51,437 nucleotides of DNA, taken from IMG/VR virus record IMGVR_UViG_3300018017_000002, positions 1 to 51,437 of that record; one strand, 5' to 3'. The position numbers and the translations under genes are program-made. Under the pieces are notes generated by a model that was given only the letters and a program-made list of their open reading frames with translations, did no database searches and was not told where the DNA came from. The DNA is from a virus. Each line of letters begins with the position of its first letter. Within the stretch, counting starts at the first letter, position 1. This document shows positions 1 to 51,437 of this stretch, piece by piece.

Positions 1-123
1 ATTCTCGCATACAAATCTTTCCTGAATAGATTCTTATCAACCATTTCTCTTATATTGCGATTAGTTGCACACACAAACCTACATGAAATCTCTTTTTCAT
101 CTGCTGCACCGACAGGACGAATG
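1..123. repeat. terminal overlap identical to 51315..51437 (circular closure of the assembly)
   Basis: Direct comparison of the first 123 nt with the last 123 nt shows identity; an ORF reads through the join. Confidence 0.95.
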
Positions 124-680
124 TATCTTTTGCCATCAATAGGTTGTAATACATTAAGCAACTTAGCTTGTGTTGACAATGGCAAGTCGCCAATCTCATC
201 AAGAAACATTACTCCATCTTGGGCAGATAGTATTAGTCCTTTCTTACTGCTAGTTGCACCAGTAAATGCACCAGCAGTATGGCCAAACAGTTCTGACTCC
301 ACTAACTCTGCTGGCATAGCCGCGCAATTAATACGAGCAAATGTTCCTTGTCTATCACCTATCATTGCTCTAGCTATTAGCTCTTTACCAGTTCCAGTTT
401 CACCAGTAATAAGAACTTCATCATCAACTTTAGCTAGCTTCATAGCATCAGCTTTCATGGCTAGGGTATCTTCATCTTCGGTTATAAACTTCTTCAACCA
501 CAAAGCTGCTCCTGTAACCATATCTACTAACTGTCCATTCTCAATTCTAAACTTTAACTCAGGAGTAATATCTAGTAACTGTTGTACAGCTTCTACTTGT
601 CCAACAGCTAACAGAGAACGCAGAGTAGATTCTGTTGGAGCTATTCTATCAGGTGTGTTAGGTTTTTGTATTGATATCAT
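1..680 (-). CDS. sigma54-dependent transcriptional activator (bEBP, AAA+ core), 5' two-thirds; continues through the circular junction into 51314..51083 (303 aa when joined)
   Basis: Own reverse translation from ATG at 680: MISIQKPNTPDR...DDEVLITGETGTGKELIARA (Walker A)...ELFGHTAGAFTGATSS (GAFTGA loop)...DGVMFLDEIGDLPL (Walker B)...CATNRNIREMV. The + strand track ORF 55..714 is its shadow. Confidence 0.9.
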   Translation of the reverse strand, partial: MISIQKPNTPDRIAPTESTLRSLLAVGQVEAVQQLLDITPELKFRIENGQLVDMVTGAALWLKKFITEDEDTLAMKADAMKLAKVDDEVLITGETGTGKELIARAMIGDRQGTFARINCAAMPAELVESELFGHTAGAFTGATSSKKGLILSAQDGVMFLDEIGDLPLSTQAKLLNVLQPIDGKRYIRPVGAADEKEISCRFVCATNRNIREMVDKNLFRKDLYAR

Positions 681-12483: not shown

Positions 12484-12495
12484 ATAGATGCATAT

Positions 12496-12699: not shown

Positions 12700-12819
12700 A
12701 GAGTGTGGATTTGCTAGTAGTCTTAGTGGGAAACAGACTATTAAAACTATCAGCATTAGTGAATGGGAAGTCGAAAAGGCCGCCATAATTCCTGTAACTC
12801 AAACTGAACATCCATTGCC

Positions 12820-19917: not shown

Positions 19918-19941
19918 GTATAAGTATTCAGCGAGTAGTTA

Positions 19942-20000
19942 TTAGCCTCTAATAATCCAAAGGGCATTGGAGTTAGCCTCTAATAGTTGTTGAAGGGCAT
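19942..20000 (+). repeat. two imperfect ~31-33 nt direct repeats in the capsid-gene leader
   Basis: TTAGCCTCTAATA at 19942 and 19973, each followed by AGGGCAT (19961, 19994). The first copy sits in the palindrome TTATTAG-CCT-CTAATAA. Confidence 0.7.
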
Positions 20001-20068
20001 CAACTCGGTTGCAAGTTACGTTTAACTTGTCATTGAGTCAGTCAACAATTTAATTGAAAGGTTAACAG

Positions 20069-40700: not shown

Positions 40701-41210
40701 AAGAATGTAATGGCTCATGTACTTACATCTGACTTTAGGTTAGCTAGAGAAGGGTATAATCAGTTAATTAACAATGGGATGATTACTGGAACTCTTGCTG
40801 AGAAGAAAGTATTATCAGATAAGATGGGTCAACTTAGACGATTTGAACAGGTTGAAGGATTGCCATTCAATGCACAAGATGCTAGTAATGCAAATCCATA
40901 CATGAATATTGAGCAGAAACAATTTAAGATGGAACAGAATCCACAGAAAGCAATGGCTATGTTGCCAGGATTGATTAGTAATATTATACAGAACTATTCT
41001 AATACTCCCGATGTAATGATGAGTAAGTTAAAAGCTCTAAAAGAGAACTCTTATGAAACTTTCCCATCAATGGAAGAAATGCCTCTGTCCTTCTTTAAAT
41101 ATATTGGGTACTTGAATAGAGAAGAAGGGCCAGAGGCAGCGAATAAAGAGTTACAAGACTATATGAAACGGAGGGTTATTAATGAGGCCAAGTCGAGTGT
41201 CATACCTTGA
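34743..41210 (+). CDS. giant virion protein (2155 aa), likely an internal core/ejection protein
   Basis: Uninterrupted 6.5-kb ORF; N-terminal glycine-zipper segment ...GGGILGGGLGAIGGGALAGT...GTIAGGIIGALAGGYAG...; last gene of the structural arm. Confidence 0.7.
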   Translation: MPVTPQEAADLKAQGWTDQEIAGAIPAPNQQSSNGQISGPQTVGRTLVAHGGGILGGGLGAIGGGALAGTMVEPGLGTIAGGIIGALAGGYAGQKGQQAIESPETYEAQQLAAQQAAEQHPNIAEGTDITAGALASGGMFSPTTAAKGIGGIIGKLTGRGAGALIAEQKGLIGQAAKAMASGSQEDINAIVSRLGTVSKALPSALEQSKAAQQVLLQSALNPAISTGLSLAQGQGMPSASELGKQALGGAMFAKSWMPHGRLGEPNPEVNNGELANDGSQEPTSKPWVSPFTAVDDAGDYKIGNKQIQSLFKKKDSGFLQPVPKDADAITKAYINTANEKLAALPVDQMREMLHQKAMGEKANDIAGVTEPEAGLRSEEEPTEEETPITRALMGLEPRGEINDNTKIPTEDTSATKPVFTTEVLQKIIDKGATKPVSVQRIFPKLNLSIPEATEALRQADLLAELHENRPEPESETQNATGIRENTGQPSKTGQVAQSSQVRSSSNMVEQTPRSAESISQEISSKLPKSQEYKGIVQSAPQHSESDFISNAAYMIQHPEEMGLYKNQQGAFNGTQLLGTIKNKIPSLEWEMLKAAGIEKAFEGRKISGEDAARWIQENEPKVKVRKFGEGGIQRSPEQAEYSQLHHSFWDSLNDSDARALKQKFLKGEPIGKYDAPLFGHPLDEQFIKTANRYNELARKSIDEGWIQKEKAGQSHWQSIAPKSEKDMPEYAELGLLTDGNKDLFQPHRLPPYFSRGHLEVLPDGTHVWEVHEVQQDVIKKVSDNEYRISPTIAGRGKTDYSEITFNSFNEAAKFVTEKIDPLFPHWERLMVKANIDHANELFDRLGVPKEKRRVGFDDAESAMMTEGHDRQAIRLGRDIIYPGEPDYKVTQEPGMRLHYDRTLPKIAEEFTGSKGEKVSFGEHKNAVQVGMHLVDNLNTKDEAIADMKATGRNENEVTIKQYGPNNWGYERNVGHRKDLIFRNPDGTPKTDVTARVYDISKIPERPPKLFGKNYSPLSDYNRYQELDRQRIAMESKITDPEELMANPEHQAISKELEAIKNKYQGQVPPQFPENHVLMPIQLQSHILNGKATTGSILHGLANTPDHPLQELASGLLKASDAKSLQVKWNHDPSLDSSLAGAKRSHYDPITDRVNIGTGSAGDARVVMEEAVHSLTSKKIPFFKGQGEEHYNRLNTYLKTGSNEHVKDLIRSYFETAKALGIHPELFKDTEMPLHPKGAAGNPDEAVSQIHGYGATTKYAMGNLDEFIAQAIKDPEFQRVLNGIKTTDNRTVWQTIVDAVRNLLGLDAKAGSMLDRVLRTSGELISQERPEGLTSIKDRVNAPPKEGEHVTPELKPFFGRAGRFFQNAIERARTVAPEVSDAYHRFYNARSEIFGKVYGNVKNVMNRTGFTTEDGKRLIEAQRQEELTGKPIATTFFKNNAQRQVWNEYKLRYKEQGEEAVKDKQPVYDYNQHQFRIRQLSDTSHPMMLNPKIGEILRANTDTEKVDQLKQDFLDNQKAHGVSLTDAQENLATELKAMQGTASNTGSGSMAHFNANRRAQGIPLPPSWQRDNFEQNLRAYASRNAGDRAHYKYIESNPSVMAQLGETHDAWGRPIPPTNKPVVAGNQFVKSLINESKGEVGPQGFYTERAGSSTATALFISSPALSAVHVPISNISGIVGLTRNPIETGRTLLAGLKGMYSGVATANKNGLVIPMARPVSDIWDSSLTTAEHFQAMSSLVRRFGSLNDIVTKGNIGYMQSAMEFLVPKRLAQANHGEGVGSKTSQQWLRKLDPDFTIGKQYSPDEIQQLASRAVGYLHGTNDPRSMPEWMMRDSEISGFFSIAHWSVAQTDRFMRDIWTPATKGDLTPLVASMFGATLGGYIIKELREQISGKHSPIPSLQEIAASDRQFKGNAGPLAYNMISALQYAGFGGVFSQIAKWPFDVAYKNIPQAAAFPLDEEITDIGGTISNVASALANDPNINYVDLAKNVMAHVLTSDFRLAREGYNQLINNGMITGTLAEKKVLSDKMGQLRRFEQVEGLPFNAQDASNANPYMNIEQKQFKMEQNPQKAMAMLPGLISNIIQNYSNTPDVMMSKLKALKENSYETFPSMEEMPLSFFKYIGYLNREEGPEAANKELQDYMKRRVINEAKSSVIP

Positions 41211-41213
41211 AAT

Positions 41214-41387
41214 TTATACATTTTGTCTTTCTTTTTCTTGTGCCATAGTATCTAAAAATATTTTTAAGTGTTCTGGTTCCTTATCATGTGTAACCTTACA
41301 TATAACTTTAAGTCCAACCATTGATAAGGTCTTTACTACTAGATAACTTTTATCATCAGATAAACTAATAATCACATTTTCATTCAT
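41214..41387 (-). CDS. hypothetical small protein (57 aa)
   Basis: Below the track cutoff; MNENVIISLSDDKSYLVVK...; ATG overlaps the MazG stop. Confidence 0.35.
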   Translation of the reverse strand: MNENVIISLSDDKSYLVVKTLSMVGLKVICKVTHDKEPEHLKIFLDTMAQEKERQNV

Positions 41388-41704
41388 ACTTTCCCATCCT
41401 TCTTATTTTTAGTCCAATCTCTTTTCTTGACTTCTTCCCAAGTGTTCGATACTGCCATACTTAAGTCAATATCATTCTGTTCACAATAGTCAGCTAGATA
41501 TATTACAATATCACCTATTGCATCTATCTTAGACATAGTATGCTCAATATCCATACCTCTAATACCTTGCTCTGCTTTCAAATGAGCATGACATAGTTCA
41601 CCAACTTCTTCTGACACACCAAGCAATGGTTGATGTTTCTGTTTATTAGGAAAGTTCTTAGCAGACCATTCTGCTACTTCAATTTGTAATTTTGTTAAGT
41701 TCAT
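41384..41704 (-). CDS. MazG-like nucleoside triphosphate pyrophosphohydrolase
   Basis: 106 aa; ...LLGVSEEVGELCHAHLKAEQG...IGDIVIYLADYC... typical all-alpha MazG motifs. Confidence 0.7.
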   Translation of the reverse strand: MNLTKLQIEVAEWSAKNFPNKQKHQPLLGVSEEVGELCHAHLKAEQGIRGMDIEHTMSKIDAIGDIVIYLADYCEQNDIDLSMAVSNTWEEVKKRDWTKNKKDGKV

Positions 41705-43086
41705 ATTGCTTTGTATATCATGTATGTTTTATGTGTAATTTTATCCTCAGCAGAATCCTCTATTATCTTACCAGTTCCTATCAAATGTCCTAGAACATCC
41801 TCTGCTGATTTCTTACCTTGTGGTAATGATTTCCAGAACTCCATCACTATATCAACCATTGTTGTTGTATGCCTTTCGCCAATATAGTGAAATATCCTGT
41901 CTGTCACTTTAGCTAAAGGATTATCAGTCTCAGACTGCAAAGCTAAATGCATGGTAGGTTCTTCTTTGTCTAATATCTCTATAGCTCGTTTAACTTCATC
42001 TATGCCAATAGTCATATTATTATTCTGAATACCACCATAATCATTCTCAGAAAAGTGTTCAGCCATAGCTACTTTCTTAACCATTATTAGTTTTCTAGTA
42101 TAATAATGTATTAACTTTGGCGAGCTATTAATTCGATTTTTAGGGTTAGAATCAAATTCTATCCACCAATCATCTAAGTATTTAGCAGCTTCAGGAGTAA
42201 ATTTAACCTGACCATATAACTTAGCTAGATTCTTTATATGAGCTAACAACTCTGCTCTATATCTAGCTTGTTCAGGAGTTGGTTCTGGTATATCTGACAC
42301 TGACTTACGATTCTTAGTTGCACAGATAAATAAACATCTAGCAGCAAATCCAGTACCTATTAACTTGTCATTTGATATTTCTTCCATGAAGTCAGGAGTA
42401 GTTCCAGCTAAGAAATTAAGGCATCCTCTACGCACTCTGTCCTCTCCATTATTCTTAGTTTTGTATTCATAGTCTAAAGGGCAGCCATGAAGTCCATTTA
42501 TGTAATGGATTACACTGTCAGCTTTCTTTCTAAAAAGACTACCTAGCTCGTCAAGACAAAAGAACATTGAGCAATGATAGTATATGTCCATCTTAGGTTC
42601 GCCAGAACCATTCATGTATGTAAAGTTAATTCTTCTACCAGCCTTGGACATGCTATCTACTAACGCTTCGTATGTAGTAGCATCAGGTGCATAAGGGAAT
42701 AGAGTAGCATCCACTTTCTCACCACCACGTTTAAGCTTCATAGTAGATGCTTCTGCATCCTCAAGGTTAGCCTGCTCTACTTTCTCTATTACTAATTTCT
42801 CTTGTTCAGAGGATTTATCATGAACGGTATTGAAGTCTTTTTTCTTGTGATATTTTAGGAACTCCATCACGCGAGTTAGCACTAATGATTTGCCAGTCCC
42901 TGGCGGGCCATATAGAATGCCATACATATTGCCAAATAATGGATTAGTACCATTCTTAGGGTCAGCACCAAATGCCACTCTACGTTGTAATGATGCGGCC
43001 ACAATGAATCGCCAGCCCCATTGGACGTATCTATCAGGGCTAGGCAGAGCATCATTGTAGGCCATCCATTTGTCAAAGTTGGTCAT
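41701..43086 (-). CDS. AAA+/P-loop ATPase, candidate replicative helicase or loader
   Basis: 461 aa; Walker A ...GILYGPPGTGKSLVL..., Walker B ...MFFCLDELGSLF...; adjacent to the polymerase. Confidence 0.6.
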   Translation of the reverse strand: MTNFDKWMAYNDALPSPDRYVQWGWRFIVAASLQRRVAFGADPKNGTNPLFGNMYGILYGPPGTGKSLVLTRVMEFLKYHKKKDFNTVHDKSSEQEKLVIEKVEQANLEDAEASTMKLKRGGEKVDATLFPYAPDATTYEALVDSMSKAGRRINFTYMNGSGEPKMDIYYHCSMFFCLDELGSLFRKKADSVIHYINGLHGCPLDYEYKTKNNGEDRVRRGCLNFLAGTTPDFMEEISNDKLIGTGFAARCLFICATKNRKSVSDIPEPTPEQARYRAELLAHIKNLAKLYGQVKFTPEAAKYLDDWWIEFDSNPKNRINSSPKLIHYYTRKLIMVKKVAMAEHFSENDYGGIQNNNMTIGIDEVKRAIEILDKEEPTMHLALQSETDNPLAKVTDRIFHYIGERHTTTMVDIVMEFWKSLPQGKKSAEDVLGHLIGTGKIIEDSAEDKITHKTYMIYKAI

Positions 43087-43235
43087 ACTTTATTAGGAAA
43101 GAAATACTTTCTAGTAGCATGTAACCTCTTTTGTTTTCTAATCCATCCTGATTTCTTTTGATATGACCATCTTAATTCTTTTTTAAGATAGTGTGCTGCT
43201 AAATAAATAGCTAGAAATTCATATTTATCTTTCAT
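43083..43235 (-). CDS. hypothetical small basic protein (50 aa)
   Basis: Below the track cutoff; ATGA overlaps at both ends link it to the polymerase C-part and the ATPase. Confidence 0.35.
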   Translation of the reverse strand: MKDKYEFLAIYLAAHYLKKELRWSYQKKSGWIRKQKRLHATRKYFFPNKV

Positions 43236-44287
43236 ATAGCTAAAGTTTTCAGTCCCATCGGATTATCTTTCTCTTTGAATGGTGCCCAATTAAGGCCCAC
43301 TTGAGTCTCAGATTTCATATTGAATACTACTCCATCAACAGGTGATGTAAACTCCTGTTCAATAAATTCTTTCTGTTTTCTTCCGCACTGCATTGCTTCT
43401 TCTATAGGACATTGAGATACTATGCTGTCATGGCCATTAAGTAACAAGTCCCAATCAAGATGATTAGTCTCTATGTATTCCTGCATTGCACAGTATGCTC
43501 TGTTAGTTATCTCACCTACCGTTGATTGCGGAGTCCATGCATAGAATGATTTATAGTCTTGTTCCGATGGACTATGCTGACTAAGATAATAAGGAGCTCC
43601 AAAGAAGTTATAAAGTATTCTTGTCTTTTCAGCTTGATAACGAACTCGCCTATTACGTTCAGGAATTTCAGGAAATAACGAACGATGTATTACTAGAAAT
43701 CTAGTGGCTTCGTCCATTGGGAGAGATATTTTTCCGCCAGATTTCTCCAAAACATTCATTCTAAATGCTTGTGCTTGTACATCATAGTTAGCACTAAGAT
43801 TAGTTTGTTTGCCAAAATAATAATATCGTTTAGATGATGGCCAGTTGTCAGTCTCTTTTATTAGATGCGACAAATCTTTCCAGTATGGATTAGATTTTAG
43901 TGCTTGTATAGGCGTCTTTAGTACATCTTGTATATCAAATCCTGGTACATCTTTCATTTCTTTTTGCCATACATAAGGAAACAAATGAGCACTAACATAC
44001 ACATGAGAATGTACTCCATGAATGAATAGCTGTCTATATGGGCCAGCTTCACAATCATATCCCATGATAAGAGCTTCGGCTCCGGCTTGGTCAGTCTGAA
44101 CCAAAATCTTACCATCATCAGGTACATATATCTGACGCATTGATTTCTCAATGTTTTGTAAGTTACCACCAAAACCTATCTTCTTCAACTTGCCATTGAT
44201 ATACTGTTTCTTAGGCATAATTTGCCTAGAACGCAGACGAAAAGATTCTGCGCCAGCTACATGCCACATACAGGAATCTCTAATCAT
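43232..44287 (-). CDS. family-A DNA polymerase, C-terminal part (palm/fingers)
   Basis: 351 aa; ...FGGNLQNIEK..., motif A ...VQTDQAGAEALIMGY..., motif B-like ...KRYYYFGKQTNLSANYD..., motif C ...LLNGHDSIVSQ... Confidence 0.8.
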   Translation of the reverse strand: MIRDSCMWHVAGAESFRLRSRQIMPKKQYINGKLKKIGFGGNLQNIEKSMRQIYVPDDGKILVQTDQAGAEALIMGYDCEAGPYRQLFIHGVHSHVYVSAHLFPYVWQKEMKDVPGFDIQDVLKTPIQALKSNPYWKDLSHLIKETDNWPSSKRYYYFGKQTNLSANYDVQAQAFRMNVLEKSGGKISLPMDEATRFLVIHRSLFPEIPERNRRVRYQAEKTRILYNFFGAPYYLSQHSPSEQDYKSFYAWTPQSTVGEITNRAYCAMQEYIETNHLDWDLLLNGHDSIVSQCPIEEAMQCGRKQKEFIEQEFTSPVDGVVFNMKSETQVGLNWAPFKEKDNPMGLKTLAI

Positions 44288-44433
44288 TTTATGTATCTTA
44301 GATACGAGCCTGTAATTACTTTTGAGTTAAAGCTAGATGTAGGAGGCACCCATTCTATACCTAGTTTCTTAAACCATTTCTTTTGTGCTTCAGTTGGTGG
44401 AAGTTGACACACTATTCGTGGTTGTGCTTTCAT
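44284..44433 (-). CDS. small ORF (49 aa) bridging the two polymerase parts
   Basis: MKAQPRIVCQLPPTEAQKKWFKKLGIEWVPPTSSFNSKVITGSYLRYIK. It starts inside the 3' end of the N-part in another frame. Its TGA overlaps the ATG of the C-part (ATGA). Confidence 0.3.
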   Translation of the reverse strand: MKAQPRIVCQLPPTEAQKKWFKKLGIEWVPPTSSFNSKVITGSYLRYIK

Positions 44434-45952
44434 TTGTATTAATCCAAGGAATAAACCTAAGACGACTTGTTTCTTTCCTTGTTTGTCTATAAATATTTAC
44501 TAATGTTAATACAGGATTGTTATACTTGAGTGCTAGTTTGTACAACGACTTCTTACCTAATGATGGCTGTCCAGTATCCTTAGACCGAAACATAACAGGA
44601 TAACCTAACAACTCATGGAAGTAAGTGCAGCATTGTTTAGTCGAACCAGCAAACATGCCAACCTTTCTTGTTCCTCTTATATCTTTCATGCCTTGCTCAC
44701 CAATCAAAATCTCAATCATTCTATTGTACTGTACCATCAATCTATCATTCTCATTACACATAGAATTTATTTTCGCCTCGTCCGTTTTGATGCCTTGTAA
44801 CGTGGAGGTAAGATAAGGACGAATACACCGCATAGCAGCCATAATACTTTCAGATAAACCGGGAATCGTTCTAGCATATGATTCAATAGCGTTGTAAACT
44901 AGATACATAGTGTACACATCTTTACCACAATAGCGTAACCTGTCCATCATTTGTTCATGTGTTCTGTATGCCATTGAGTTCTCATCTTTATGAAATTTCT
45001 CCCATGTCCAGTATGATACACAATGACCAAGAGACTTTTCAATGTCAGGAAAGCATCTATGCATAGCTATCATAGTATCATATGTCTTAACTATTGGTAT
45101 ATGATACTTCCACGCTAAAATAAAGAAATCAAATGTTTGACCATTGTGGGCAACTAAAGTATTGTCTCTAATAGCAATTGCCAAAGCTCGTAAAATACAG
45201 TGTAGATTAGTATAAGCCCACTTATAGTTATAATCAAGAACAGGTACAGAATAAATAGTAGAGCCATCAAAAGAGAAGCTAAAGCATTGCCAATTGCATT
45301 CTTCAATGTCTGTCTCTTTGTCATAAAATAATAGTTTGTTCTTGTTATCTTGTAAACACTCTATCACTTCTTTAGCTGATGGATAGATAATGTATTTTGG
45401 TTTTCCAACCACTGGACTGTAGTCAGCGAGTATCTTCTTACACTTGGATACATCAGCTTTGAGCCAAAAAGCATAGTTAGCCCTCTTGGTTCTGCCATGT
45501 CTCTTAACATCGCCCTCGTCCTCATCTTCATCTGAACCTGATACCTCAGAGTCTGTAGAATAGTCTTTAGCATATGGATTATTTTCTCCTTCATAGTTAC
45601 GAGGGTCAACTGCATCTTGCGGAAGATAGGATGCTATTGCAGGAATACCTTTGTGATACATCAGGGAACCTCTCATTTCATTGAGTGAGTTCCCTAATGT
45701 TTCAGGAAGGAATTTATGCATTGCTGATTCTCCAAGTAGTAATATACACTTGGTATCGGGGAGTAGCGGTGCAGTTTCATCCCTTAATCTCACGTCACAT
45801 TGCATACTATTATATTCAGGGCGTAGACAATGGTTGTCAAAAAGCAATCCTCCATTTGCACTTAGTAACCTTAGAGAATCAAATCTGCTTGGATTACTCA
45901 TGACTACTGTCAATCCTGAATACTTAAACTTTGGTTTGTTTCTTAATAACAT
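44390..45952 (-). CDS. family-A DNA polymerase, N-terminal part (about 200-aa extension, 3'-5' exonuclease, thumb)
   Basis: 520 aa; Exo I ...LFYDKETDIE..., Exo II ...LVAHNGQTFDFFIL..., Exo III ...RYCGKDVYTMYLVY... Confidence 0.8.
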   Translation of the reverse strand: MLLRNKPKFKYSGLTVVMSNPSRFDSLRLLSANGGLLFDNHCLRPEYNSMQCDVRLRDETAPLLPDTKCILLLGESAMHKFLPETLGNSLNEMRGSLMYHKGIPAIASYLPQDAVDPRNYEGENNPYAKDYSTDSEVSGSDEDEDEGDVKRHGRTKRANYAFWLKADVSKCKKILADYSPVVGKPKYIIYPSAKEVIECLQDNKNKLLFYDKETDIEECNWQCFSFSFDGSTIYSVPVLDYNYKWAYTNLHCILRALAIAIRDNTLVAHNGQTFDFFILAWKYHIPIVKTYDTMIAMHRCFPDIEKSLGHCVSYWTWEKFHKDENSMAYRTHEQMMDRLRYCGKDVYTMYLVYNAIESYARTIPGLSESIMAAMRCIRPYLTSTLQGIKTDEAKINSMCNENDRLMVQYNRMIEILIGEQGMKDIRGTRKVGMFAGSTKQCCTYFHELLGYPVMFRSKDTGQPSLGKKSLYKLALKYNNPVLTLVNIYRQTRKETSRLRFIPWINTNESTTTNSVSTSTN

Positions 45953-46124
45953 TTGAATCGTGTGATGCTAGTTCTGCCATTATAGCAATACCAATAGATT
46001 TTATATAATCTATATGACGAGCAATTATCTTTGTCTCTATGTCATTAGCTAATACTGAAATCTTAACTCCATAAGTTCTTATTTCCCCATTAGTTACTAT
46101 ATTATCCTCAATTCCTATTTGCAT
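45924..46124 (-). CDS. hypothetical protein (66 aa)
   Basis: Track ORF with ATG start; overlaps the polymerase start by 29 nt. Confidence 0.4.
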   Translation of the reverse strand: MQIGIEDNIVTNGEIRTYGVKISVLANDIETKIIARHIDYIKSIGIAIMAELASHDSNVIKKQTKV

Positions 46125-46163
46125 AAATTAAATAAAAGCCGATACTATTTATACTCCCTCGGC
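46125..46163 (-). terminator. candidate rho-independent terminator after 46181..46717
   Basis: Minus strand: GCCGA-(16 nt)-TCGGC followed by TTTTATTTAATTT. An alternative CTCCC/GGGAG stem overlaps it. Confidence 0.5.
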
Positions 46164-46180
46164 AAACGGGAGGCGATTAT

Positions 46181-46717
46181 TTAGTAAGGTTTAGAACTAT
46201 CAGTGGGCGCTAGTGCAAAGATTTGAACTATCTTAGGATAGTTAGTCTTGAGTTCTTTCTCAGTGATAGGATGTTTCAATACATCACCCTCTTTAATCCC
46301 CTTAGCCAGCTGTTCTTTGGTTGGAGATTTGCGTTTAGCTTTCTGGTCATTATCTAGTTCAGCATATACAACCTTACCTTTGAATCCCATTGGAGGATTC
46401 TCAGGATTAAAGTTATCTTCATCAACAGGAATTTCGCATGCTTTGTAAAGAGCGAGCAAGCGTTTCTTGTTGTCTGCTGTCTTTTCAATATCAACTTGAC
46501 CATCTACTAATGTTTGTACATTCTGATAATACTTAATAGGTATTCCAGCAATGTTATATTCTTCTCCTGCTACTTCCATTGATTCGGGAGAAACAATTTC
46601 TAATCCAAGAGTAAACATTGGATTTTCCTTGCTAGAAGGAGCAAACTTTTCGTCTACGAATCTAAGAATATAGTTTGATTGATGTTCAAACACTACATCC
46701 ATGTTCCATTTCTTCAT
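46181..46717 (-). CDS. hypothetical protein (178 aa); possible ssDNA-binding protein by position only
   Basis: Lies between the recombination genes and the polymerase; no verifiable motif. Confidence 0.5.
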   Translation of the reverse strand: MKKWNMDVVFEHQSNYILRFVDEKFAPSSKENPMFTLGLEIVSPESMEVAGEEYNIAGIPIKYYQNVQTLVDGQVDIEKTADNKKRLLALYKACEIPVDEDNFNPENPPMGFKGKVVYAELDNDQKAKRKSPTKEQLAKGIKEGDVLKHPITEKELKTNYPKIVQIFALAPTDSSKPY

Positions 46718-46784
46718 TGTTAATTGGCAGTAGGATGCCAGCCTATGTTTTGTTTATCCTCTTAGATGTTATATCCAAGAGAAA

Positions 46785-46955
46785 TTACTTACCAGCAGCC
46801 TTGGTAGGTTGTGGTGGTTTAGCGAACTCTGTTTCAAGTTCATGCAGGTTAGTCAATACTTCAGCAAAGGTAGCATAGAATAATGCTGACTGACCTTTGG
46901 TTGAAGATACGGATACTAACCATCCATTCATTATCTTATTGATTGTTATGTTCAT
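46785..46955 (-). CDS. hypothetical small protein (56 aa)
   Basis: Below the track cutoff; MNITINKIMNGWLVSVSSTKGQ...; ATGA overlap with the upstream stop. Confidence 0.35.
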   Translation of the reverse strand: MNITINKIMNGWLVSVSSTKGQSALFYATFAEVLTNLHELETEFAKPPQPTKAAGK

Positions 46956-47239
46956 ATTTCAATTTTAGGAAAGAGTTCAGTAATGATTTTATTGAATTGT
47001 TCTTTACGTCGTTCGGCCAATGCTAGTTCATCTAGCTTATCAATGATAGTATCATAGTTAAGTTCTTTAACCGAACATGCTTCATTAACTTCTTTCTCCA
47101 ATGTTGCACAACGCTCCTCAAGTTTAGCGACTTCAAGTTCGGCTTTTAATTGTTGTGATTTAGAACGAACAGGTGCAAGAGTTTTATCAACTGCATCCTT
47201 CGTCATTGTTATTAGTTTTTGATATGGTGTTAGTTTCAT
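46952..47239 (-). CDS. hypothetical coiled-coil-like protein (95 aa)
   Basis: Track ORF; heptad-like Lys/Glu/Leu-rich sequence. Confidence 0.5.
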   Translation of the reverse strand: MKLTPYQKLITMTKDAVDKTLAPVRSKSQQLKAELEVAKLEERCATLEKEVNEACSVKELNYDTIIDKLDELALAERRKEQFNKIITELFPKIEI

Positions 47240-47445
47240 ACTTTGTTAGTTAGTAATAATAGTTTCTTGTTTATTATTTTCTCTACTGGTTGTGTAGATT
47301 GTTGTGGCCATCCACCTAATGGTTGCATTGCTGCCATTTCTCCCATCTGTGATTGTTGCATCATTCTATATTGCATTTCTCTTTGTCTTTGTCTTTCTTG
47401 CATTCTATAATATTCTTCTATAGAATTATTTGTGAGTCCATTCAT
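47236..47445 (-). CDS. hypothetical Gln/Met-rich protein (69 aa)
   Basis: Track ORF; ATGA overlap. Confidence 0.45.
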   Translation of the reverse strand: MNGLTNNSIEEYYRMQERQRQREMQYRMMQQSQMGEMAAMQPLGGWPQQSTQPVEKIINKKLLLLTNKV

Positions 47446-47446
47446 A

Positions 47447-48304
47447 TTAAACCTTTCTCATGTACTTACTAAAGGATTCCCAATTGGCAGGGATGAATTT
47501 TGGTTGATTAACTAATGAGCCAGACTTGGCATTAAACAAATCATCACCTATTGTTTGCCAATAGTATATTGCTGGCCCAACAAATGTATCACACATTGCC
47601 TTGAACTCTTTAACATCTTTCATTCCCCATGCGGCCAATGACTCTGGTTTGATACTACTATAATCAGTTGGCTTAGCTGCAACATGCTGTCTGAACCAGT
47701 CTGTGTAGTCTTTGATTATGGTATCACCAGACTTGCCAGACAACACAGGACGTATCTTACCTGTGTACTGTCCCGGCTGTCCAACTGTTGTTGGTTTGTC
47801 AGGTCGCTCTGACTCATGGCAGAGTAACATAACATCACACTTAAGTGACAATAGTATAAATGAAATCTCATTTATATACTTCTCTTTTATCTGCCACTCC
47901 ATAAATTCATTGACTCTACCAGTCTTAGAAATAGCTACTTCCATTTCATTGGCTTTAAACCAAATATGATATGCATTTTCAATATCAGATAGTCCATCAA
48001 GTATTAAAGTTTGTTCACTAGATAATTTTGGTGACTCTTTCTCTAACCATTGTACAAACTTATCTTTAACTTCTTCTCTCTTGCCACCTACTTCTGATTT
48101 GTAGAATGGTACTTCATGAACGTCAGCCCTTCCTTGATGTGCACCTAGACCTCTATTTAGGTTAGCAACTATAGGATGTTGAAATGTAAGGGCCGCCCAT
48201 GTCTTTCCAGTGTTTGGGAAGCCTTGAATACCTAGTCGGATTTGTTGTCTGCCTACTATCTTGTCTAATGAATTGCAGTTAGGTGGAATATAAATGTTAC
48301 TCAT
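47447..48304 (-). CDS. Sak4-like / AAA_24-type P-loop ATPase (recombination-associated)
   Basis: 285 aa; Walker A ...LGIQGFPNTGKTWAALTF... near the N-terminus; next to the PD-(D/E)XK nuclease. Confidence 0.65.
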   Translation of the reverse strand: MSNIYIPPNCNSLDKIVGRQQIRLGIQGFPNTGKTWAALTFQHPIVANLNRGLGAHQGRADVHEVPFYKSEVGGKREEVKDKFVQWLEKESPKLSSEQTLILDGLSDIENAYHIWFKANEMEVAISKTGRVNEFMEWQIKEKYINEISFILLSLKCDVMLLCHESERPDKPTTVGQPGQYTGKIRPVLSGKSGDTIIKDYTDWFRQHVAAKPTDYSSIKPESLAAWGMKDVKEFKAMCDTFVGPAIYYWQTIGDDLFNAKSGSLVNQPKFIPANWESFSKYMRKV

Positions 48305-48318
48305 TGTTGTTCTTTCTA

Positions 48319-48594
48319 TCAGTTACCTGTGTTCTCTAAATACTTATGTCGTTCTATATTGGCATCTGGTATTATACCCTTCTGAATCTTTACTCCACCA
48401 ATCTCTATGTTCAAATGGTTTTGTTCAACAGTTGTTGTAGAAGGGCCAAGAGTTAATAAGGGATATGCTCTGTTAAAAGCCTGTAACAAAGACTTACCAG
48501 ATGTATGTTCTATTACCAGAGCTAGTAAGAACACTCCATCTTTGTCTTTAATATGTATTGAGATTGTTTTTGGTTCGGTCATAAAATGTTTCAT
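48319..48594 (-). CDS. hypothetical protein (91 aa)
   Basis: Track ORF. Confidence 0.5.
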   Translation of the reverse strand: MKHFMTEPKTISIHIKDKDGVFLLALVIEHTSGKSLLQAFNRAYPLLTLGPSTTTVEQNHLNIEIGGVKIQKGIIPDANIERHKYLENTGN

Positions 48595-49640
48595 ATTTCA
48601 TTATATTTTAGAGGATTAAATATACGTTTTTTGAAATCTCTCTCTAATAAAATCTCAGATACATTTTCTTCTGAATTACAAACACACCAAAATTTGCAAC
48701 GTCCCCACTCACCTATACACGACCCGTTAATTAACCCTTCTTGTGGTAAGTAACCAGTCTTAATAGCTTGTGATAGTCTCTTACATTGGTCATCAAGTGT
48801 AAGTCTAAATGCATCAAGCTCAGCATCTCTGTATGTAAACACTGATGACCTACCATACGATGTCTCATTCATAGCAGGCTTGATAAAGATAGCATCTATA
48901 AATGCACCAGTATTAGTCTTACCTATCTGTCCAAGTATAGAGTTAGGTTCAAGGGCCGCCATTAGTTTTAATGCAACAGTATAAATGCGTAGCTGTCTAG
49001 CTCTATCATATTTAGAAAAGTATTCTTTCTTATTCCAAGTTGAGGTTGTTTTGAAATCTCGGATAGCATAACAGCCACCCTTAATCCTGCCTAAACCATC
49101 TATTGTTCCACACAGATAGATTCGTACTGTATCATCTTCGTAATATAGAATACGGAAGGTTACTTCGGATGCGGGTTGTAAGAATGATTTGGCTCCATTA
49201 CAGACTGGACACTCTGATACAGTTAAAATGACTTTATCACCTTCCATTCTAAGACTAGAAGTATCTGCAAAAGTTCCACTCCCCTTACACTTCCAACAAG
49301 GCAAGTTAAGTTCTACTAACTCAAACTCTTGGTCAGGCTTAATATACATTTCCCATGTGTTAAAGGCTACACCTATCATATGGTTCTTGTCCATAAGATG
49401 CGGTGATTTACCTTTGAAGTCAACCTTAGGTGCAGAGAAAGCTAATTCAGCTTCGGCCCTAGCTGTTGGTATGTGCCCTTTAGTCTTGTACATCATGTCC
49501 CAATACTTATGACATGCTACACCATAAGTTAGTTTGCAATCTTGCACTGGTTCTGTATATCCATCTACAACAGTTCTGTGTAAATTAAGAATACATCCAG
49601 ATGCTCCAAGAGCAGTTGAGTCTAAGTTAATATCAATCAT
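48591..49640 (-). CDS. PD-(D/E)XK (RecB/Cas4-like) exonuclease with an inserted CxxCxGxG zinc finger and a C-terminal Cys cluster
   Basis: ...YLCGTIDGLGRIKGGCYAIRDFKTTS... (D...D-x-K), ...RQLRIY... (QxxxY), CWKCKGSG...CPVCNGAK, C-terminal ...CIGEWGRCKFWCVC... Confidence 0.7.
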   Translation of the reverse strand: MIDINLDSTALGASGCILNLHRTVVDGYTEPVQDCKLTYGVACHKYWDMMYKTKGHIPTARAEAELAFSAPKVDFKGKSPHLMDKNHMIGVAFNTWEMYIKPDQEFELVELNLPCWKCKGSGTFADTSSLRMEGDKVILTVSECPVCNGAKSFLQPASEVTFRILYYEDDTVRIYLCGTIDGLGRIKGGCYAIRDFKTTSTWNKKEYFSKYDRARQLRIYTVALKLMAALEPNSILGQIGKTNTGAFIDAIFIKPAMNETSYGRSSVFTYRDAELDAFRLTLDDQCKRLSQAIKTGYLPQEGLINGSCIGEWGRCKFWCVCNSEENVSEILLERDFKKRIFNPLKYNEI

Positions 49641-49876
49641 CTTTTCTTATATGTTAGTAAACTCACATCTACCTCAATCCCAAGATTCTTAGCTAGGGCT
49701 AAGCCTTTAGCTAGGTTAGGATTGGCAGACATAAGTTGTTGCTCTTTGCGTTTAGCTGGTGTTGCCATTTCAGGACGGGTCTCTGGAAAGTATTGAGCGA
49801 AATGAATCCTAAGTTCTTCATCAGACATCTTTTCCAAAGTAGCTGCATCACAAGCTATTAGTTCCTCAATGGTCAT
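49637..49876 (-). CDS. hypothetical protein (79 aa)
   Basis: Track ORF; ATGA overlap. Confidence 0.5.
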   Translation of the reverse strand: MTIEELIACDAATLEKMSDEELRIHFAQYFPETRPEMATPAKRKEQQLMSANPNLAKGLALAKNLGIEVDVSLLTYKKR

Positions 49877-50030
49877 ATAAGGATGCTAAGTCAGCTAGCA
49901 CAAATTGCGGTTCTTTATCTGGAATAAATACTGTTACATTTTTCTTTGTTTTCTTTATTGACTGTATATTATGGCCACCAGAAATTCTATGTGTTGACAT
50001 ACCCACATATCTGAACTTATTCTTCTTCAT
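49866..50030 (-). CDS. hypothetical small basic protein (54 aa)
   Basis: Below the track cutoff; MKKNKFRYVGMSTHRISGGHN...; ATGA overlap with the upstream stop. Confidence 0.3.
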   Translation of the reverse strand: MKKNKFRYVGMSTHRISGGHNIQSIKKTKKNVTVFIPDKEPQFVLADLASLYDH

Positions 50031-50650
50031 GACTTAATAATCTTAACCTCTCTTGTTGATACAGAAAATATAATGTTAGTTAACCCATCTAACTCCATGT
50101 TAAGTTGTTCAACTTGTTCAGGAGTCAATAGCAATCCATCCTTATGAAAAGGCTCGGTGGCTTGTGGGTTGTCTAACCATTCTTCCATGTTACGTTTCCA
50201 TATAGGATTATCTTCTTCTGCTATACAGACTTCTGCTTTAGGTGAGTCGCCTTCTAATACATCATCAAACTTCATTGCTACTCCTACACCATCTATCATA
50301 GAAATAGTAATTTCTTCTCTAAACTTTTTGTATATGCCTTGTTCATCCATATTGTTCTCTACATCCAATAGATAACGAAAGGCTTGATTAACTCGTAAGT
50401 ATAACGAACGAACACTGACATTAGGCCACAAATCTTTTCTATATGTTCGTGGCTGTCTGTCCTTAATCATTTCGTCTATGTCTCTTTTCAACCATTCAGC
50501 ATAACGACGTTTGTAGTATGTAGCATACGATTTACGACTCCAACCATGAGGACGTTTCTTAACAACTAAATTTACAACTTGTTGCATAGTACGACCGTCA
50601 TTGAAAGTTACTGTAACAGGCTTGGATTGTTGTTCTATTGGTTCAGACAT
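50027..50650 (-). CDS. hypothetical protein (207 aa), first gene of the replication module
   Basis: Track ORF with ATG start. Confidence 0.6.
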   Translation of the reverse strand: MSEPIEQQSKPVTVTFNDGRTMQQVVNLVVKKRPHGWSRKSYATYYKRRYAEWLKRDIDEMIKDRQPRTYRKDLWPNVSVRSLYLRVNQAFRYLLDVENNMDEQGIYKKFREEITISMIDGVGVAMKFDDVLEGDSPKAEVCIAEEDNPIWKRNMEEWLDNPQATEPFHKDGLLLTPEQVEQLNMELDGLTNIIFSVSTREVKIIKS

Positions 50651-50707
50651 ACAGATTAAATCAAATGTCCAGTTTTATGTGGTTACTGGACAGGTTTATG
50701 AATAACC

Positions 50708-50723
50708 AGCAAAAGCCTAACCA
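50708..50723 (-). promoter_or_regulatory. weaker sigma54-like site P7
   Basis: Minus strand reads TGGTTA-GGCTT-TTGCT (GG and TTGCT at correct spacing, -24 flank degenerate); about 47 nt upstream of the ATG at 50650. Confidence 0.35.
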
Positions 50724-51042
50724 AATGCCGCCACAATACCTTAAATTGTTTAGGCAAAGGGTGGCTCGTGAAAACCACAACACTGTTAAGTATTACTTTC
50801 AACGCCCGATGCCTTCAAACAGCTAACGTCTAATTCCGTTTACTGTGTATTGTCAGAGTGCCATGTTATAGACATTCACTCATTGTCTATACTATTACTT
50901 ATGTCACAGTTAATCGATGGAGCTTGTGAACAAGGTATCGTCAACCAGTTTAATAATAGCTTCTGTCTTTATTCAGAATGTCAAGCGCATATTTTATGTC
51001 TATCGCCCAGACAAAATTAACATCTAATTGCTCAATACTATA

Positions 51043-51058
51043 AGCATTTTCTATGCCA
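51043..51058 (-). promoter_or_regulatory. sigma54-type -24/-12 promoter P6 (25 nt downstream of the bEBP stop)
   Basis: Minus strand reads TGGCAT-AGAAA-ATGCT followed by TATA; points into the replication module. Confidence 0.7.
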
Positions 51059-51082
51059 AGTCAGATTAGTGTATAACTAATG

Positions 51083-51437
51083 TTAGAAAGTATATCGTAT
51101 CTTTCCTAATACATTATATCTTTTCAATGCTTGTTCAAGTGACCTTACATTCAATGACAAATCAATCTTATCATTCATTATAGCTTCTTCATATTGAGCT
51201 AGAAATTCTTTTGCTTTGACTGGCAACTTAAGTAAATCTCCAAGAGCTATTACTATTGGAACTATATCTCTCTTACGTTCCCTCAATGGTTTAATGTGCA
51301 ATTCAAATGTACTTATTCTCGCATACAAATCTTTCCTGAATAGATTCTTATCAACCATTTCTCTTATATTGCGATTAGTTGCACACACAAACCTACATGA
51401 AATCTCTTTTTCATCTGCTGCACCGACAGGACGAATG
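51083..51437 (-). CDS. sigma54-dependent activator, 3' third (same gene as 1..680; 51315..51437 duplicates 1..123)
   Basis: ...CATNRNIREMVDKNLFRKDLYARISTFELHIKPLRERKRDIVPIV...LNVRSLEQALKRY..., then a stop 14 aa later. No C-terminal HTH. Confidence 0.9.
   Translation of the reverse strand, partial: IRPVGAADEKEISCRFVCATNRNIREMVDKNLFRKDLYARISTFELHIKPLRERKRDIVPIVIALGDLLKLPVKAKEFLAQYEEAIMNDKIDLSLNVRSLEQALKRYNVLGKIRYTF

What the first reader, a model, noticed from the sequence alone, without database searches (positions are those of the whole stretch)
50708..51058. Activator gene followed directly by sigma54 promoter(s) for the replication module
P6 begins 25 nt after the activator stop codon. A weaker site (TGGTTA-GGCTT-TTGCT, 50723..50708) lies about 47 nt upstream of the first replication-module gene. 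About 330 nt with no ORF separates the two sites. Downstream, the genes from 50650 to 41214 are mostly linked by ATGA-type overlaps: nuclease, Sak4-like ATPase, polymerase, ATPase, MazG. The layout suggests a cascade in which the activator is made first and then switches on DNA replication genes and a possible leader RNA.
Basis: partly seen in the sequence, partly recalled or inferred. Interest (0 to 1): 0.7.

Follow-up and report, generated by a model that had tools for sequence, protein, structure and literature searches.

The report
Phage sigma-54 promoter driving structured leader RNA
An uncultivated ~51-kb phage carries its own minimal sigma-54 activator gene, followed 24 nt later by a conserved sigma-54 promoter whose transcript starts with a ~380-nt, covariation-supported structured RNA of no known family and then runs into the DNA-replication genes; the second, "weaker" promoter is just part of one hairpin of that RNA.

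Summary
P6 (51043-51058, minus strand; TGGCATAGAAAATGCT) is real. It is one of 7 strong, correctly oriented -24/-12 sites (8 pattern matches against 0.69 expected). It starts 24 nt after the stop codon of a genuine GAFTGA bEBP. An equivalent site lies between the activator and the same downstream gene in 15 relatives.

The "weak site" (50708-50723) is not supported. It ranks 1176th with the phage's own promoter matrix and is absent from the two closest relatives. It forms the loop and 3' strand of an RNA hairpin whose stem shows compensatory changes.

The ~320-nt "no ORF" stretch is the main result. The 382-nt leader (about 51032-50651) belongs to a modular structured RNA family with no Rfam match. 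For 50739-50896, 98.9% of cells pair, 28 of 38 pairs show double compensatory changes, and 0 of 500 shuffles reach this. The leader is 89% identical to a close relative, against 66% at third codon positions of the adjacent gene. Relatives add a pseudoknotted module and tRNA genes in the same gap.

The activator has no C-terminal DNA-binding domain and is translationally coupled into an upstream operon. The layout therefore looks like a feed-forward or autoregulatory sigma-54 circuit, not a simple "activator first" cascade. RNA function, host and transcription start sites remain inferred.

The parts
51083..51437 (-). 3' part of the phage bEBP (sigma-54 activator) gene; stop codon TAA at 51085-51083
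   Evidence: The protein is 303 aa. Pfam Sigma54_activat gives E=1.8e-54. Residues 65-296 align to the central AAA+ domains of NtrC4, FleQ and PspF. No HTH_8 domain is present.
1..680 (-). 5' part of the same activator gene. The genome is circular or terminally redundant: 1-123 repeats 51315-51437. The ATG at 680 overlaps the stop of ORF 838-677 (ATGA).
51080..51095 (-). Upstream element ATATACTTTCTAACAT, 21 nt before P6. It overlaps the last four codons and the stop of the activator. Exact copies lie at 8882-8897(-), 23 nt before sigma-54 site 8843-8858, and at 12147-12162(+).
   Evidence: A related TATAAC..CTAACA element sits upstream of P6 orthologues and is non-coding in L020.
51043..51058 (-). 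P6: sigma-54 -24/-12 promoter TGGCATAGAAAATGCT (GG-N10-GC). The predicted start site is ~51032.
   Evidence: 17.8 bits, leave-one-out. Orthologous sites are found in 15 relatives and in the distant L003-L006 group.
50651..51032 (-). 382-nt untranslated leader, a structured RNA of a modular family with no Rfam match
51013..51031 (-). Conserved 5' motif GCAATTAGATGTTAATTTT (family consensus GCAATAGTTAATTT), starting at about +2
   Evidence: In L016 the motif stays with the RNA, not with the promoter, when an HNH ORF is inserted between them.
50892..50959 (-). Helix H_a (50959-50953 pairs with 50898-50892). It encloses the conserved strands AAACTG and TGTGACATAA and hairpin H_b (50945-50937 / 50918-50909).
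   Evidence: 49 of 49 cells pair in 7 genomes by motif-anchored extraction, and all 7 pairs show at least 2 pair types. L028 has a paired 1-nt deletion on both strands.
50739..50896 (-). 3' domain, made of four elements. Hairpin 3: 50891-50885 / 50873-50867. Hairpin X: within 50848-50819. Long-range helix: 50815-50805 / 50761-50752. That helix encloses hairpins 50795-50778 and 50778-50761.
   Evidence: With 5 sequences, 98.9% of cells pair and 28 of 38 pairs show double changes. No shuffle out of 500 reaches this, and slid controls give 28-49%. Conserved G-U pairs fix the strand.
50707..50730 (-). Hairpin CGGCA / UGCUG.
   Evidence: The stem reads CGGUG/CACUG in L009 and CGGCG/CGCUG in L028. 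The loop is shortened to 8 nt in both, which removes the GG element; rank 1176.
50665..50693 (-). Hairpin CTGTCCAGT-N11-ACTGGACAT. The loop is identical in L009 and L028.
50027..50650 (-). First gene after the leader: a 207-aa protein of unknown function that always follows the RNA
   Evidence: The AlphaFold model (pLDDT 82) has no PDB match (best E=0.16); the weak hits are mostly winged-helix proteins.
41214..50026 (-). Rest of the replication block: PD-(D/E)XK nuclease, AAA_24 (Sak4-like), family-A polymerase exo and pol halves, DUF3987 ATPase and MazG. 10 of 17 junctions are ATGA overlaps.

Best explanation
P6 is a functional sigma-54-dependent promoter of an uncultivated ~51.3-kb phage.

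Proposed steps (all inferred unless marked otherwise):
1. Host RNA polymerase carrying host sigma-54 sits on TGGCAT-N6-TGCT as a closed complex.
2. The phage's 303-aa bEBP opens that complex using ATP. The protein has a 64-aa N-terminal domain and an AAA+ core with a GAFTGA loop, and lacks a C-terminal helix-turn-helix. It most likely acts from solution, or through the conserved TATAC/TATAAC..CTAACA element ~21 nt upstream of the -24 box.
3. Transcription starts near 51032. It first produces a ~380-nt highly structured RNA and then continues, with no predicted terminator, into the 18-gene replication block (50650-41214).
4. The structured RNA is a selected element in its own right, not a spacer. 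I commit to the view that it is a co-transcribed non-coding RNA module, probably released by processing. In several relatives, tRNA genes lie between it and the mRNA, which would force RNase P/Z cleavage.
5. Its synthesis is thereby locked to the sigma-54/bEBP switch that also turns up the replication genes.

The "weak second promoter" is not a promoter. It is the loop and 3' strand of one hairpin of this RNA.

Shown here: motif statistics, orthologous conservation, the domain content of the activator, RNA covariation, and purifying selection on the leader.
Inferred: use of host sigma-54, the start site, activation by this bEBP, RNA processing and RNA function.
For: Promoter:
- 8 matches against 0.69 expected.
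- P6 scores 17.8 bits, rank 7, with a leave-one-out matrix.
- All 7 strong sites point toward the adjacent genes or RNA genes and share flanks.
- The same motif lies between the activator and the homologue of the 207-aa gene in 15 relatives. In these the boxes are invariant and the spacer varies. It sits 7-44 nt after the stop codon, or ~190-260 nt after it when a small ORF intervenes.
- In the distant L003-L006 group it is the only match in 9-13 kb and lies downstream of the activator gene.

Activator:
-.
- At least 120 clusters of 280-330-aa homologues cover 94-99% of the query. None has HTH_8, and many sit on 36-53-kb contigs.
- No sigma-54 gene was detected among the window ORFs that were scanned.

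RNA:
- Leader identity to L009 is 89.4%, against 82% for the adjacent coding DNA and 66% at third codon positions.
- Window vs L009: 59 pairs, none broken, 5 double-compensatory; 0 of 200 column shuffles reach 5.
- Adding L028: 16 compensatory pairs, against a maximum of 6 in 200 shuffles.
- Covariance model R3 finds the domain in L022 (89 bits) and L023 (69 bits). The 5-sequence alignment gives 98.9% of cells paired and 28 of 38 pairs with double changes.
- Helix H_a: 49 of 49 cells pair.
- In relatives, a pseudoknotted 3' module gives 92.7% paired and 13 of 21 covarying pairs, including a pseudoknot helix that the model did not use for alignment.
- tRNAs lie in the same gap in L011, L014, L024 and L025.

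Weak site.
Against: - There are no transcript data, so the start site, sigma-54 dependence and RNA stability are untested.
- The host is unknown. No prophage copy was found in 185,579 reference genomes, so the presence of rpoN in the host is assumed.
- No terminator-like site separates the activator from P6. The replication genes could be expressed largely by read-through, with P6 serving mainly the RNA.
- The window lacks the pseudoknotted module M3 of many relatives, so the family is heterogeneous.
- Alignments made by a covariance model lean towards its structure, although the slid and shuffled controls and the MAFFT-based analyses agree.
- The whole-leader folding z-score is only -1.5.
Confidence: 0.75

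Rival explanations
1. The structured leader acts in cis on the replication operon. It could work as a processive antitermination element (like HK022 put or EAR), as a stability element, or as a riboswitch-like control of translation or elongation. On this view it is not a stand-alone RNA.
For: - It always lies on the sense strand between P6 and the first gene of a long, tightly overlapped operon.
- In L002, L016, L019, L020 and L021 the pseudoknotted module ends 10-30 nt before the start codon.
- Alternative pairings involving the GACUUC element and the GUGAAG loop were seen by eye in relatives.
- A similar 5' motif (TATTSAGC..AGTAGTTAWT) begins the transcript from sigma-54 site 19902, ahead of a 444-aa gene of unknown function (no PHROG match) in the plus-strand block that holds the terminase.
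Against: - The distance to the start codon is not conserved (15 to more than 200 nt). L028 has ~215 extra nt after the last shared hairpin.
- tRNA genes lie between the RNA and the gene in L011, L014, L024 and L025, so processing would sever the RNA from the mRNA.
- There is no terminator-like hairpin in the leader and no excess of terminators in the operon.
- There is no Rfam riboswitch match.
Confidence: 0.3
2. The region is the origin of replication. The P6 transcript would form an R-loop or primer (as at T4 oriF/oriG, or ColE1 RNA II), or the 207-aa tandem winged-helix-like protein would bind here. sigma-54 activation would then license replication.
For: - The region lies immediately upstream of the replication module.
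- The RNA and the 207-aa gene are always adjacent.
- Weak fold hits for that protein are mostly winged-helix DNA binders.
- The structured RNA precedes genes for a family-A polymerase.
Against: - Leader G+C is 37%, close to the genome's 40%. There are no iterons and no AT-rich unwinding element.
- A much better origin-like region, with AT-rich tandem repeats, lies at 12040-12240 between the divergent gene blocks.
- Fold matches are not significant (best E=0.16).
- Covariation argues for selection on RNA folding, which primers need only partly.
Confidence: 0.1
3. Both sites are promoters. P6 would make a leader or non-coding RNA, and the weak site at 50708-50723 would be a second sigma-54 promoter for the replication genes.
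For: The GG-N10-GC spacing is correct and the TTGCT -12 box is good. The position is ~47 nt upstream of the ATG.
Against: - It ranks 1176th, at -8.7 bits, with the phage's own matrix.
- The pattern class is expected ~16 times by chance.
- In L009 a 6-nt deletion removes TGGTTA and GC becomes AC, although the flanks are ~90% conserved.
- L028 and L029 also lack it.
- The TTGCT box is the 3' strand of a stem that changes in a compensatory way.
Confidence: 0.05

Closest known systems
Bacterial enhancer-binding proteins with sigma-54 -24/-12 promoters (NtrC, PspF, FleQ class)
   Same: The activator has an AAA+ core with the GAFTGA loop, Walker A (GETGTGKE) and Walker B (FLDEIG). It aligns to the NtrC4, FleQ and PspF central domains at E of 1e-35 to 1e-45. 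The promoters have the TGGCAY-N6-TGCT geometry.
   Different: The activator is encoded by a phage and is 303 aa long. It has no receiver, GAF or PAS input domain and no C-terminal Fis-type HTH. The promoter sits 24 nt after the activator's own stop codon, and no classical inverted-repeat enhancer was found at -80 to -150. Five full-text searches found no described natural phage system of this kind, although the library is incomplete.
bEBPs that lack a DNA-binding domain and activate from solution (Helicobacter FlgR, Chlamydia CtcC; from my own knowledge, not tested here)
   Same: The protein ends at the AAA+ lid (sensor II, NVRSLEQAL), so it has no C-terminal DNA-binding domain.
   Different: Those proteins carry a phosphorylatable receiver domain. 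This one has an uncharacterised 64-aa N-terminal domain that is conserved across the phage family.
Phage transcription cascades in which a phage product redirects host RNA polymerase (T4 MotA/AsiA middle and gp55/gp33/gp45 late promoters; the T4 oriF/oriG middle-promoter R-loop)
   Same: A phage-encoded factor is needed for a dedicated class of promoters in front of replication and late genes.
   Different: This phage uses the host's alternative sigma-54 together with an ATP-driven AAA+ remodeller, not sigma appropriation or a phage sigma. The activator itself lies downstream of sigma-54 sites, which suggests positive feedback.
Large ornate phage-associated non-coding RNAs next to tRNA genes (GOLLD, ROOL)
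   Same: The RNA is several hundred nucleotides long, multi-helix and modular. It is encoded in phage genomes and often lies next to tRNA genes. Its function is unknown.
   Different: cmscan against all 4227 Rfam families found no match at E<=1. The RNA is smaller in this window (~380 nt). It always lies downstream of a sigma-54 promoter and upstream of one particular gene.
Cis-acting leader RNAs of long operons (HK022 put, lambda nut, EAR)
   Same: A structured RNA lies immediately after a promoter, at the head of a long phage operon.
   Different: This RNA is much larger, its modules vary, tRNAs are embedded in relatives, and no terminators were predicted for it to overcome.

Membership tests
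sigma-54-dependent promoter (P6, 51043-51058) | GG and GC doublets exactly 10 nt apart, within TGGCAC / TTGCW-like boxes | tested here: met
   TGGCATAGAAAATGCT.
sigma-54-dependent promoter (P6, 51043-51058) | More frequent than chance, oriented toward genes, and conserved at the orthologous position | tested here: met
   8 matches against 0.69 expected. Rank 7 with the leave-one-out matrix. Present in 15 relatives plus the L003-L006 group.
sigma-54-dependent promoter (P6, 51043-51058) | Transcription depends on sigma-54 holoenzyme and on ATP hydrolysis by a bEBP | not testable with these tools
   This needs an rpoN or bEBP mutant, or in vitro transcription. The host is unknown.
sigma-54-dependent promoter (weak site, 50708-50723) | Match to the -24 box, and conservation in relatives | tested here: not met
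   TGGTTA lacks the CA of TGGCA. It ranks 1176th at -8.7 bits. It is deleted or changed in L009, L028 and L029. It lies within a covarying hairpin.
Bacterial enhancer-binding protein (AAA+ sigma-54 activator) | Sigma54_activat domain above the curated cut-off, with the GAFTGA loop and Walker A/B motifs | tested here: met
   184.4 bits against a cut-off of 20.2. HTAGAFTGA, GETGTGKE and FLDEIG are present.
Bacterial enhancer-binding protein (AAA+ sigma-54 activator) | C-terminal Fis-type HTH that binds an upstream enhancer (typical of the family but not universal) | tested here: not met
   The protein ends 7 residues after the AAA+ alignment. There is no HTH_8 in Pfam for it or for 120 homologues. 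No shared inverted repeat lies upstream of the 7 promoters.
Any described RNA family (Rfam 15, including GOLLD, ROOL, riboswitches, ribozymes, tmRNA and RNase P) | Covariance-model match | tested here: not met
   There is no relevant match at E<=1 in the window region or in the leaders of 15 relatives. Only tRNAs were found in some relatives.
Structured RNA under selection (generic) | Compensatory base-pair changes beyond the shuffled and slid controls; conservation above the neutral rate | tested here: met
   (28 of 38 pairs, 0 of 500 shuffles).. Leader identity is 89% against 66% at third codon positions.
Pseudoknotted 3' module M3 of the relatives' leaders | Match to covariance models R1 and R2 (hairpin with GAAUAGUAA loop plus an H-type pseudoknot with an A-rich loop) | tested here: not met
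   M3 is found in L002, L011, L012, L015, L016, L017, L019, L020, L021, L024 and L025. It is not found in the window or L009.
Intrinsic terminator or attenuator in the leader | G+C-rich hairpin followed by a run of T | tested here: not met
   No terminator-like site in 50000-51437. Hairpin 50665-50693 has an 11-nt loop and only an interrupted U tract.

The most novel reading that the evidence does not exclude
A widespread clade of ~50-kb uncultivated phages runs most of its transcription through host sigma-54, using a minimal phage bEBP that lacks a DNA-binding domain. The conserved structured RNA made from the activator-adjacent promoter would be a new class of functional phage RNA. It could work with the invariably adjacent 207-aa (possibly tandem winged-helix) protein, for example as a ribonucleoprotein or primer that couples sigma-54 activation to the start of DNA replication. 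Alternatively it could be a polymerase-modifying leader.
Probability: 0.2. Interest if true: 0.85.

Novelty: new variant of a known kind. Interest (0 to 1): 0.72.

Why it matters
Sigma-54 transcription is usually described as a cellular stress and nutrient device with strictly activator-gated, "zero-leak" promoters. A phage family that brings its own stripped-down activator, and places sigma-54 promoters in front of several of its gene blocks (replication genes, the block that holds the terminase) and its RNA genes, would be a new way for a virus to take over host transcription. It would also be a natural source of compact, orthogonal activator-promoter pairs.

The leader adds a new multi-helix RNA family with unusually clear covariation. 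The family includes a pseudoknotted module and embedded tRNAs. Its fixed position, between the activator gene and the replication genes, makes its function directly testable.

Tried and rejected
- **Close phage relatives.** Megablast of 41000-51437 against 50,697 phage records gave no match. The activator, searched by tblastn, hits mostly mis-binned bacterial contigs. The terminase resembles only Akkermansia phages, at 25-28% identity.
- **Host identification.** A scan of 185,579 reference genomes found no prophage copy.
- **Small ORFs in the leader.** Only ORFs of 40 aa or less are present, they are not conserved, and they are frameshifted in L009.
- **sigma-70-type promoters and terminators.** Both occur at chance level in 50000-51437, 41000-50700 and 1-13000.
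- **Whole-leader thermodynamics.** The signal is weak, with z-scores of -1.5 and -1.9.
- **Plain MAFFT alignments of the leaders.** These were out of register and under-counted pairs. I replaced them with motif-anchored extraction and covariance-model alignments.
- **Module M3 in the window.** Absent.
- **A classical enhancer.** A k-mer search upstream of the 7 promoters found none. It found only the 16-mer shared by P6 and site 8843.
- **Function of the 207-aa protein.** No Pfam or PHROG family and no significant PDB fold match.
- **Literature on phage-encoded bEBPs.** Five searches found nothing relevant.
- **L021 promoter spacing.** The GG-N11-GC spacing was set aside as a probable indel error. 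This rests on my reading of the contig label "np1212" as marking a nanopore assembly, and on the frameshifted HNH ORF in the same gap.

Full report
**Context.**
The window has an exact 123-bp terminal direct repeat, so it represents a circular or terminally redundant genome of 51,314 bp with 39.7% G+C. It carries a large terminase, a 2155-aa protein, a tmRNA and replication genes, and it has no near relative among 50,697 deposited phage records. Minus-strand genes run from ~11.8 kb leftwards through position 1 and on to 41214. Plus-strand genes run from 12.5 kb to 41.2 kb.

**The observation.**
- On the minus strand the activator ORF ends with TAA at 51085-51083. TGGCATAGAAAATGCT occupies 51058-51043, 24 nt later.
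- TGGCA-N7-TGCT occurs 8 times in the window against 0.69 expected; no shuffle out of 100 reaches 8.
- Seven of these sites (8843-, 10056-, 11705+, 11839-, 12468+, 19902+, 51043-) lie outside the long ORFs, point toward the adjacent genes or RNA genes, and share extended similarity (TGGCAYR..A.TGCTATA).
- A matrix built without P6 scores it at 17.8 bits, rank 7 of ~102,600 positions. The next non-training site scores 11.8.
However, the loose pattern it fits is expected 16 times by chance, and it ranks 1176th at -8.7 bits.
- The 319 nt between the sites hold only ORFs of 40 aa or less on the sense strand.
- 10 of the 17 junctions in the 50650-41214 block are ATGA overlaps.
- The gene identities are confirmed: PD-(D/E)XK nuclease, AAA_24, family-A polymerase exonuclease and polymerase halves, DUF3987 ATPase and MazG.

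**The activator.**
- Joined across the terminal repeat, the gene encodes 303 aa. Pfam Sigma54_activat scores 184 bits, and the GAFTGA, Walker A and Walker B motifs are present.
- Residues 65-296 align with the central domains of NtrC4, FleQ, NtrC1 and PspF. The protein ends 7 residues later, so there is no Fis-type DNA-binding domain. The first 64 residues match no known family.
- At least 120 sequence clusters of 280-330-aa homologues cover 94-99% of the query and none has HTH_8. Many sit on contigs of 36-53 kb, so this is a diverse phage clade.
- The start codon overlaps the stop of the preceding ORF (ATGA). Upstream and co-directional lie small ORFs, an ATP-dependent DNA ligase and an SF2 helicase.
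- That block lies downstream of the sigma-54 sites at 8843, 10056 and 11839. No sigma-54 gene was detected among the window ORFs that were scanned.
- The activator is therefore embedded in DNA-metabolism genes and probably sits within sigma-54-driven transcription. This suggests positive feedback more than a linear "activator first" cascade. Where the first transcription comes from is unknown.

**Conservation of the arrangement.**
- I collected relatives through the activator and through the 207-aa first gene.
- In every locus with enough upstream sequence the order is the same: activator, sometimes one small ORF, a gene-free gap of 300-1220 nt, the 207-aa homologue, then the nuclease and AAA_24 genes.
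- A TGGCA-N7-TGCT site lies in that gap in 15 distinct relatives. The boxes are invariant and the spacer varies. The site is 7-44 nt after the activator stop, or ~190-260 nt after it when a small ORF intervenes.
- L021 has GG-N11-GC in what I read from the contig label as a nanopore assembly, so this is probably an indel error.
- In a distant group (L003-L006, activators 44% identical) the only match in 9-13 kb again lies just after the activator gene.
- An upstream element is also conserved. In the window it reads ATATACTTTCTAACAT, ends 21 nt before P6 and overlaps the activator's last codons. Exact copies lie 23 nt before site 8843 and inside the AT-rich region at 12147. In L020 the related element is non-coding, so its conservation does not come from the protein.

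**The weak site.**
- L009, whose 207-aa protein is 90% identical, has a 6-nt deletion that removes TGGTTA, and its GC is changed to AC. The surrounding leader is ~89% identical. L028 and L029 also lack the site.
- RNAalifold places the region in a hairpin that reads CGGCA/UGCUG in the window, CGGUG/CACUG in L009 and CGGCG/CGCUG in L028. The loops differ in length.
- The apparent -12 box is therefore one strand of an RNA stem, and the -24 box is a lineage-specific insertion in the loop.

**The leader RNA.**
- The predicted start (~51032) is followed at about +2 by a family-wide motif (GCAATAGTTAATTT). In L016 this motif stays with the RNA when an HNH endonuclease ORF is inserted after the promoter.
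- The leader is more conserved than the gene it precedes. Identity to L009 is 89.4%, against 82% for the coding DNA and 66% at third codon positions.
- Window versus L009: 59 predicted pairs, none broken, 5 with double compensatory changes. No column shuffle out of 200 reaches 5.
- With L028 added: 16 compensatory pairs, against a maximum of 6 in 200 shuffles.
- A covariance model of 50739-50896 finds the same domain in L022 (89 bits) and L023 (69 bits). On the 5-sequence alignment 98.9% of cells pair and 28 of 38 pairs carry changes on both sides. No shuffle out of 500 reaches this, and slid controls give 28-49%.
- Invariant G-U pairs show that the folded strand is the one transcribed from P6.
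- Further 5', helix H_a (50959-50953 with 50898-50892) was extracted using only invariant sequence anchors. It pairs in 49 of 49 cells across 7 genomes, and every position varies. L028 shortens it by a matched 1-nt deletion on each strand.
- Many relatives carry a different 3' module: a hairpin with a GAAUAGUAA loop plus an H-type pseudoknot with an A-rich loop. It gives 92.7% of cells paired and 13 of 21 covarying pairs, including the pseudoknot helix that the model did not use for alignment. The window lacks this module.
- Several relatives have tRNA genes, some with 25-40-nt insertions, at the 3' end of the gap.
- Nothing in Rfam 15 matches the RNA at E<=1.

**Mechanism.**
- Best reading: host sigma-54 holoenzyme binds P6, and the phage bEBP, which has no DNA-binding domain, opens the complex. 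The transcript starts with the structured RNA and continues into the replication block.
- No terminator-like site is predicted between the activator and P6 or within the leader. In the block, terminator-like sites are no more frequent than chance (3 found against 4.5 expected).
- Three features favour a co-transcribed, probably processed, non-coding RNA module over a translational riboswitch: the RNA is modular, its distance to the start codon varies, and it can be separated from the mRNA by tRNA genes.
- A co-transcriptional cis role, such as antitermination or stability, remains a serious rival.
- An origin or primer role is less likely. The leader is not AT-rich and has no iterons, and a far more origin-like AT-rich repeat region lies at 12040-12240.
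- The adjacent 207-aa protein gives a confident model (pLDDT 82) with no significant PDB match. Its weak hits are mostly winged-helix proteins, which is only a lead.

**Comparison and novelty.**
- The promoter and activator are members of the sigma-54/bEBP system by every feature testable here, except that the activator lacks the usual DNA-binding domain. Helicobacter FlgR and Chlamydia CtcC share that exception (my own knowledge, not tested here).
- Five full-text searches found no described phage with its own bEBP and a set of sigma-54 promoters. The library is incomplete, so this is not proof of absence.
- The RNA resembles GOLLD and ROOL in being a large, ornate, phage-borne RNA next to tRNA genes, but it fails the membership test.
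- I rate the whole as a new variant of a known kind: interest 0.72, and confidence 0.75 in the composite explanation. The weak second promoter is rejected (0.05).

Noticed in passing
window 9551-9844 (-), with sigma-54 site 10056-10071 (-): The phage encodes a tmRNA (Rfam RF00023, 112 bits, E=3e-43; ARAGORN predicts an unusual 29-residue tag). It lies 212 nt downstream of a strong sigma-54 site, so sigma-54 promoters here also appear to drive RNA genes.
   Followed up: partly
window 8882-8897 (-), 51080-51095 (-), 12147-12162 (+): There are three exact copies of the 16-mer ATATACTTTCTAACAT. Two end 21-23 nt upstream of sigma-54 -24 boxes (site 8843 and P6). The third lies inside the AT-rich repeat region. 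A related TATAAC..CTAACA element precedes P6 orthologues in most relatives. It may be an enhancer, a bending site, or a marker of a temporal promoter class.
   Followed up: partly
window 12040-12240: An extremely AT-rich stretch of short tandem repeats (tatattatatt...) lies between the divergent gene blocks. It is the best origin-of-replication or early-promoter candidate in the genome.
   Followed up: no
window 11705-11720 (+) and 11839-11854 (-): Two strong sigma-54 sites face each other ~120 nt apart. Their transcripts would overlap in antisense over ~110 nt at their 5' ends.
   Followed up: no
window 19918-20068 (+): The leader from sigma-54 site 19902 runs ahead of a 444-aa gene of unknown function. 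It begins with a sequence similar to the start of the P6 leader (TATTCAGCGAGTAGTTATTAG against TATTGAGCAATTAGATGTTAATTTT). It also contains a repeated TTAGCCTCTAATA.
   Followed up: no
window 6285-6372 (-): A tRNA-like gene was found by Rfam (36 bits, 88 nt, so probably with an insertion) but not by ARAGORN.
   Followed up: no
window 43232-45952 (-): The family-A DNA polymerase is split into an exonuclease-domain ORF (44390-45952) and a polymerase-domain ORF (43232-44287). A 49-aa ORF (44284-44433) bridges them.
   Followed up: no
L024 2206-2303, L025 2352-2460, L011 1839-1918, L014 248-323: tRNA genes lie at the 3' end of the relatives' leaders. Two carry 25-40-nt insertions, and one has a 4-nt anticodon by ARAGORN. 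All are followed by CCAATTTA-like sequence.
   Followed up: partly
L016 562-1023; L021 ~1320-2000: A free-standing HNH/AP2-like homing-endonuclease ORF (153 aa) is inserted between the sigma-54 promoter and the RNA in L016. L021, which I read from the contig label as a nanopore assembly, has a frameshifted copy at the same place.
   Followed up: no
window 1-123 and 51315-51437: A 123-bp exact terminal direct repeat is present. The window is a complete circular or terminally redundant genome, and the repeat falls inside the activator gene.
   Followed up: yes
window-wide (gene starts, e.g. 50651-50670; L015, L025, L027 gene starts): Genes lack Shine-Dalgarno sequences and are preceded by A/C-rich tracts (caacaacaaaca...). 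This hints at a host with SD-independent initiation, such as Bacteroidota. The host could not be established.
   Followed up: no
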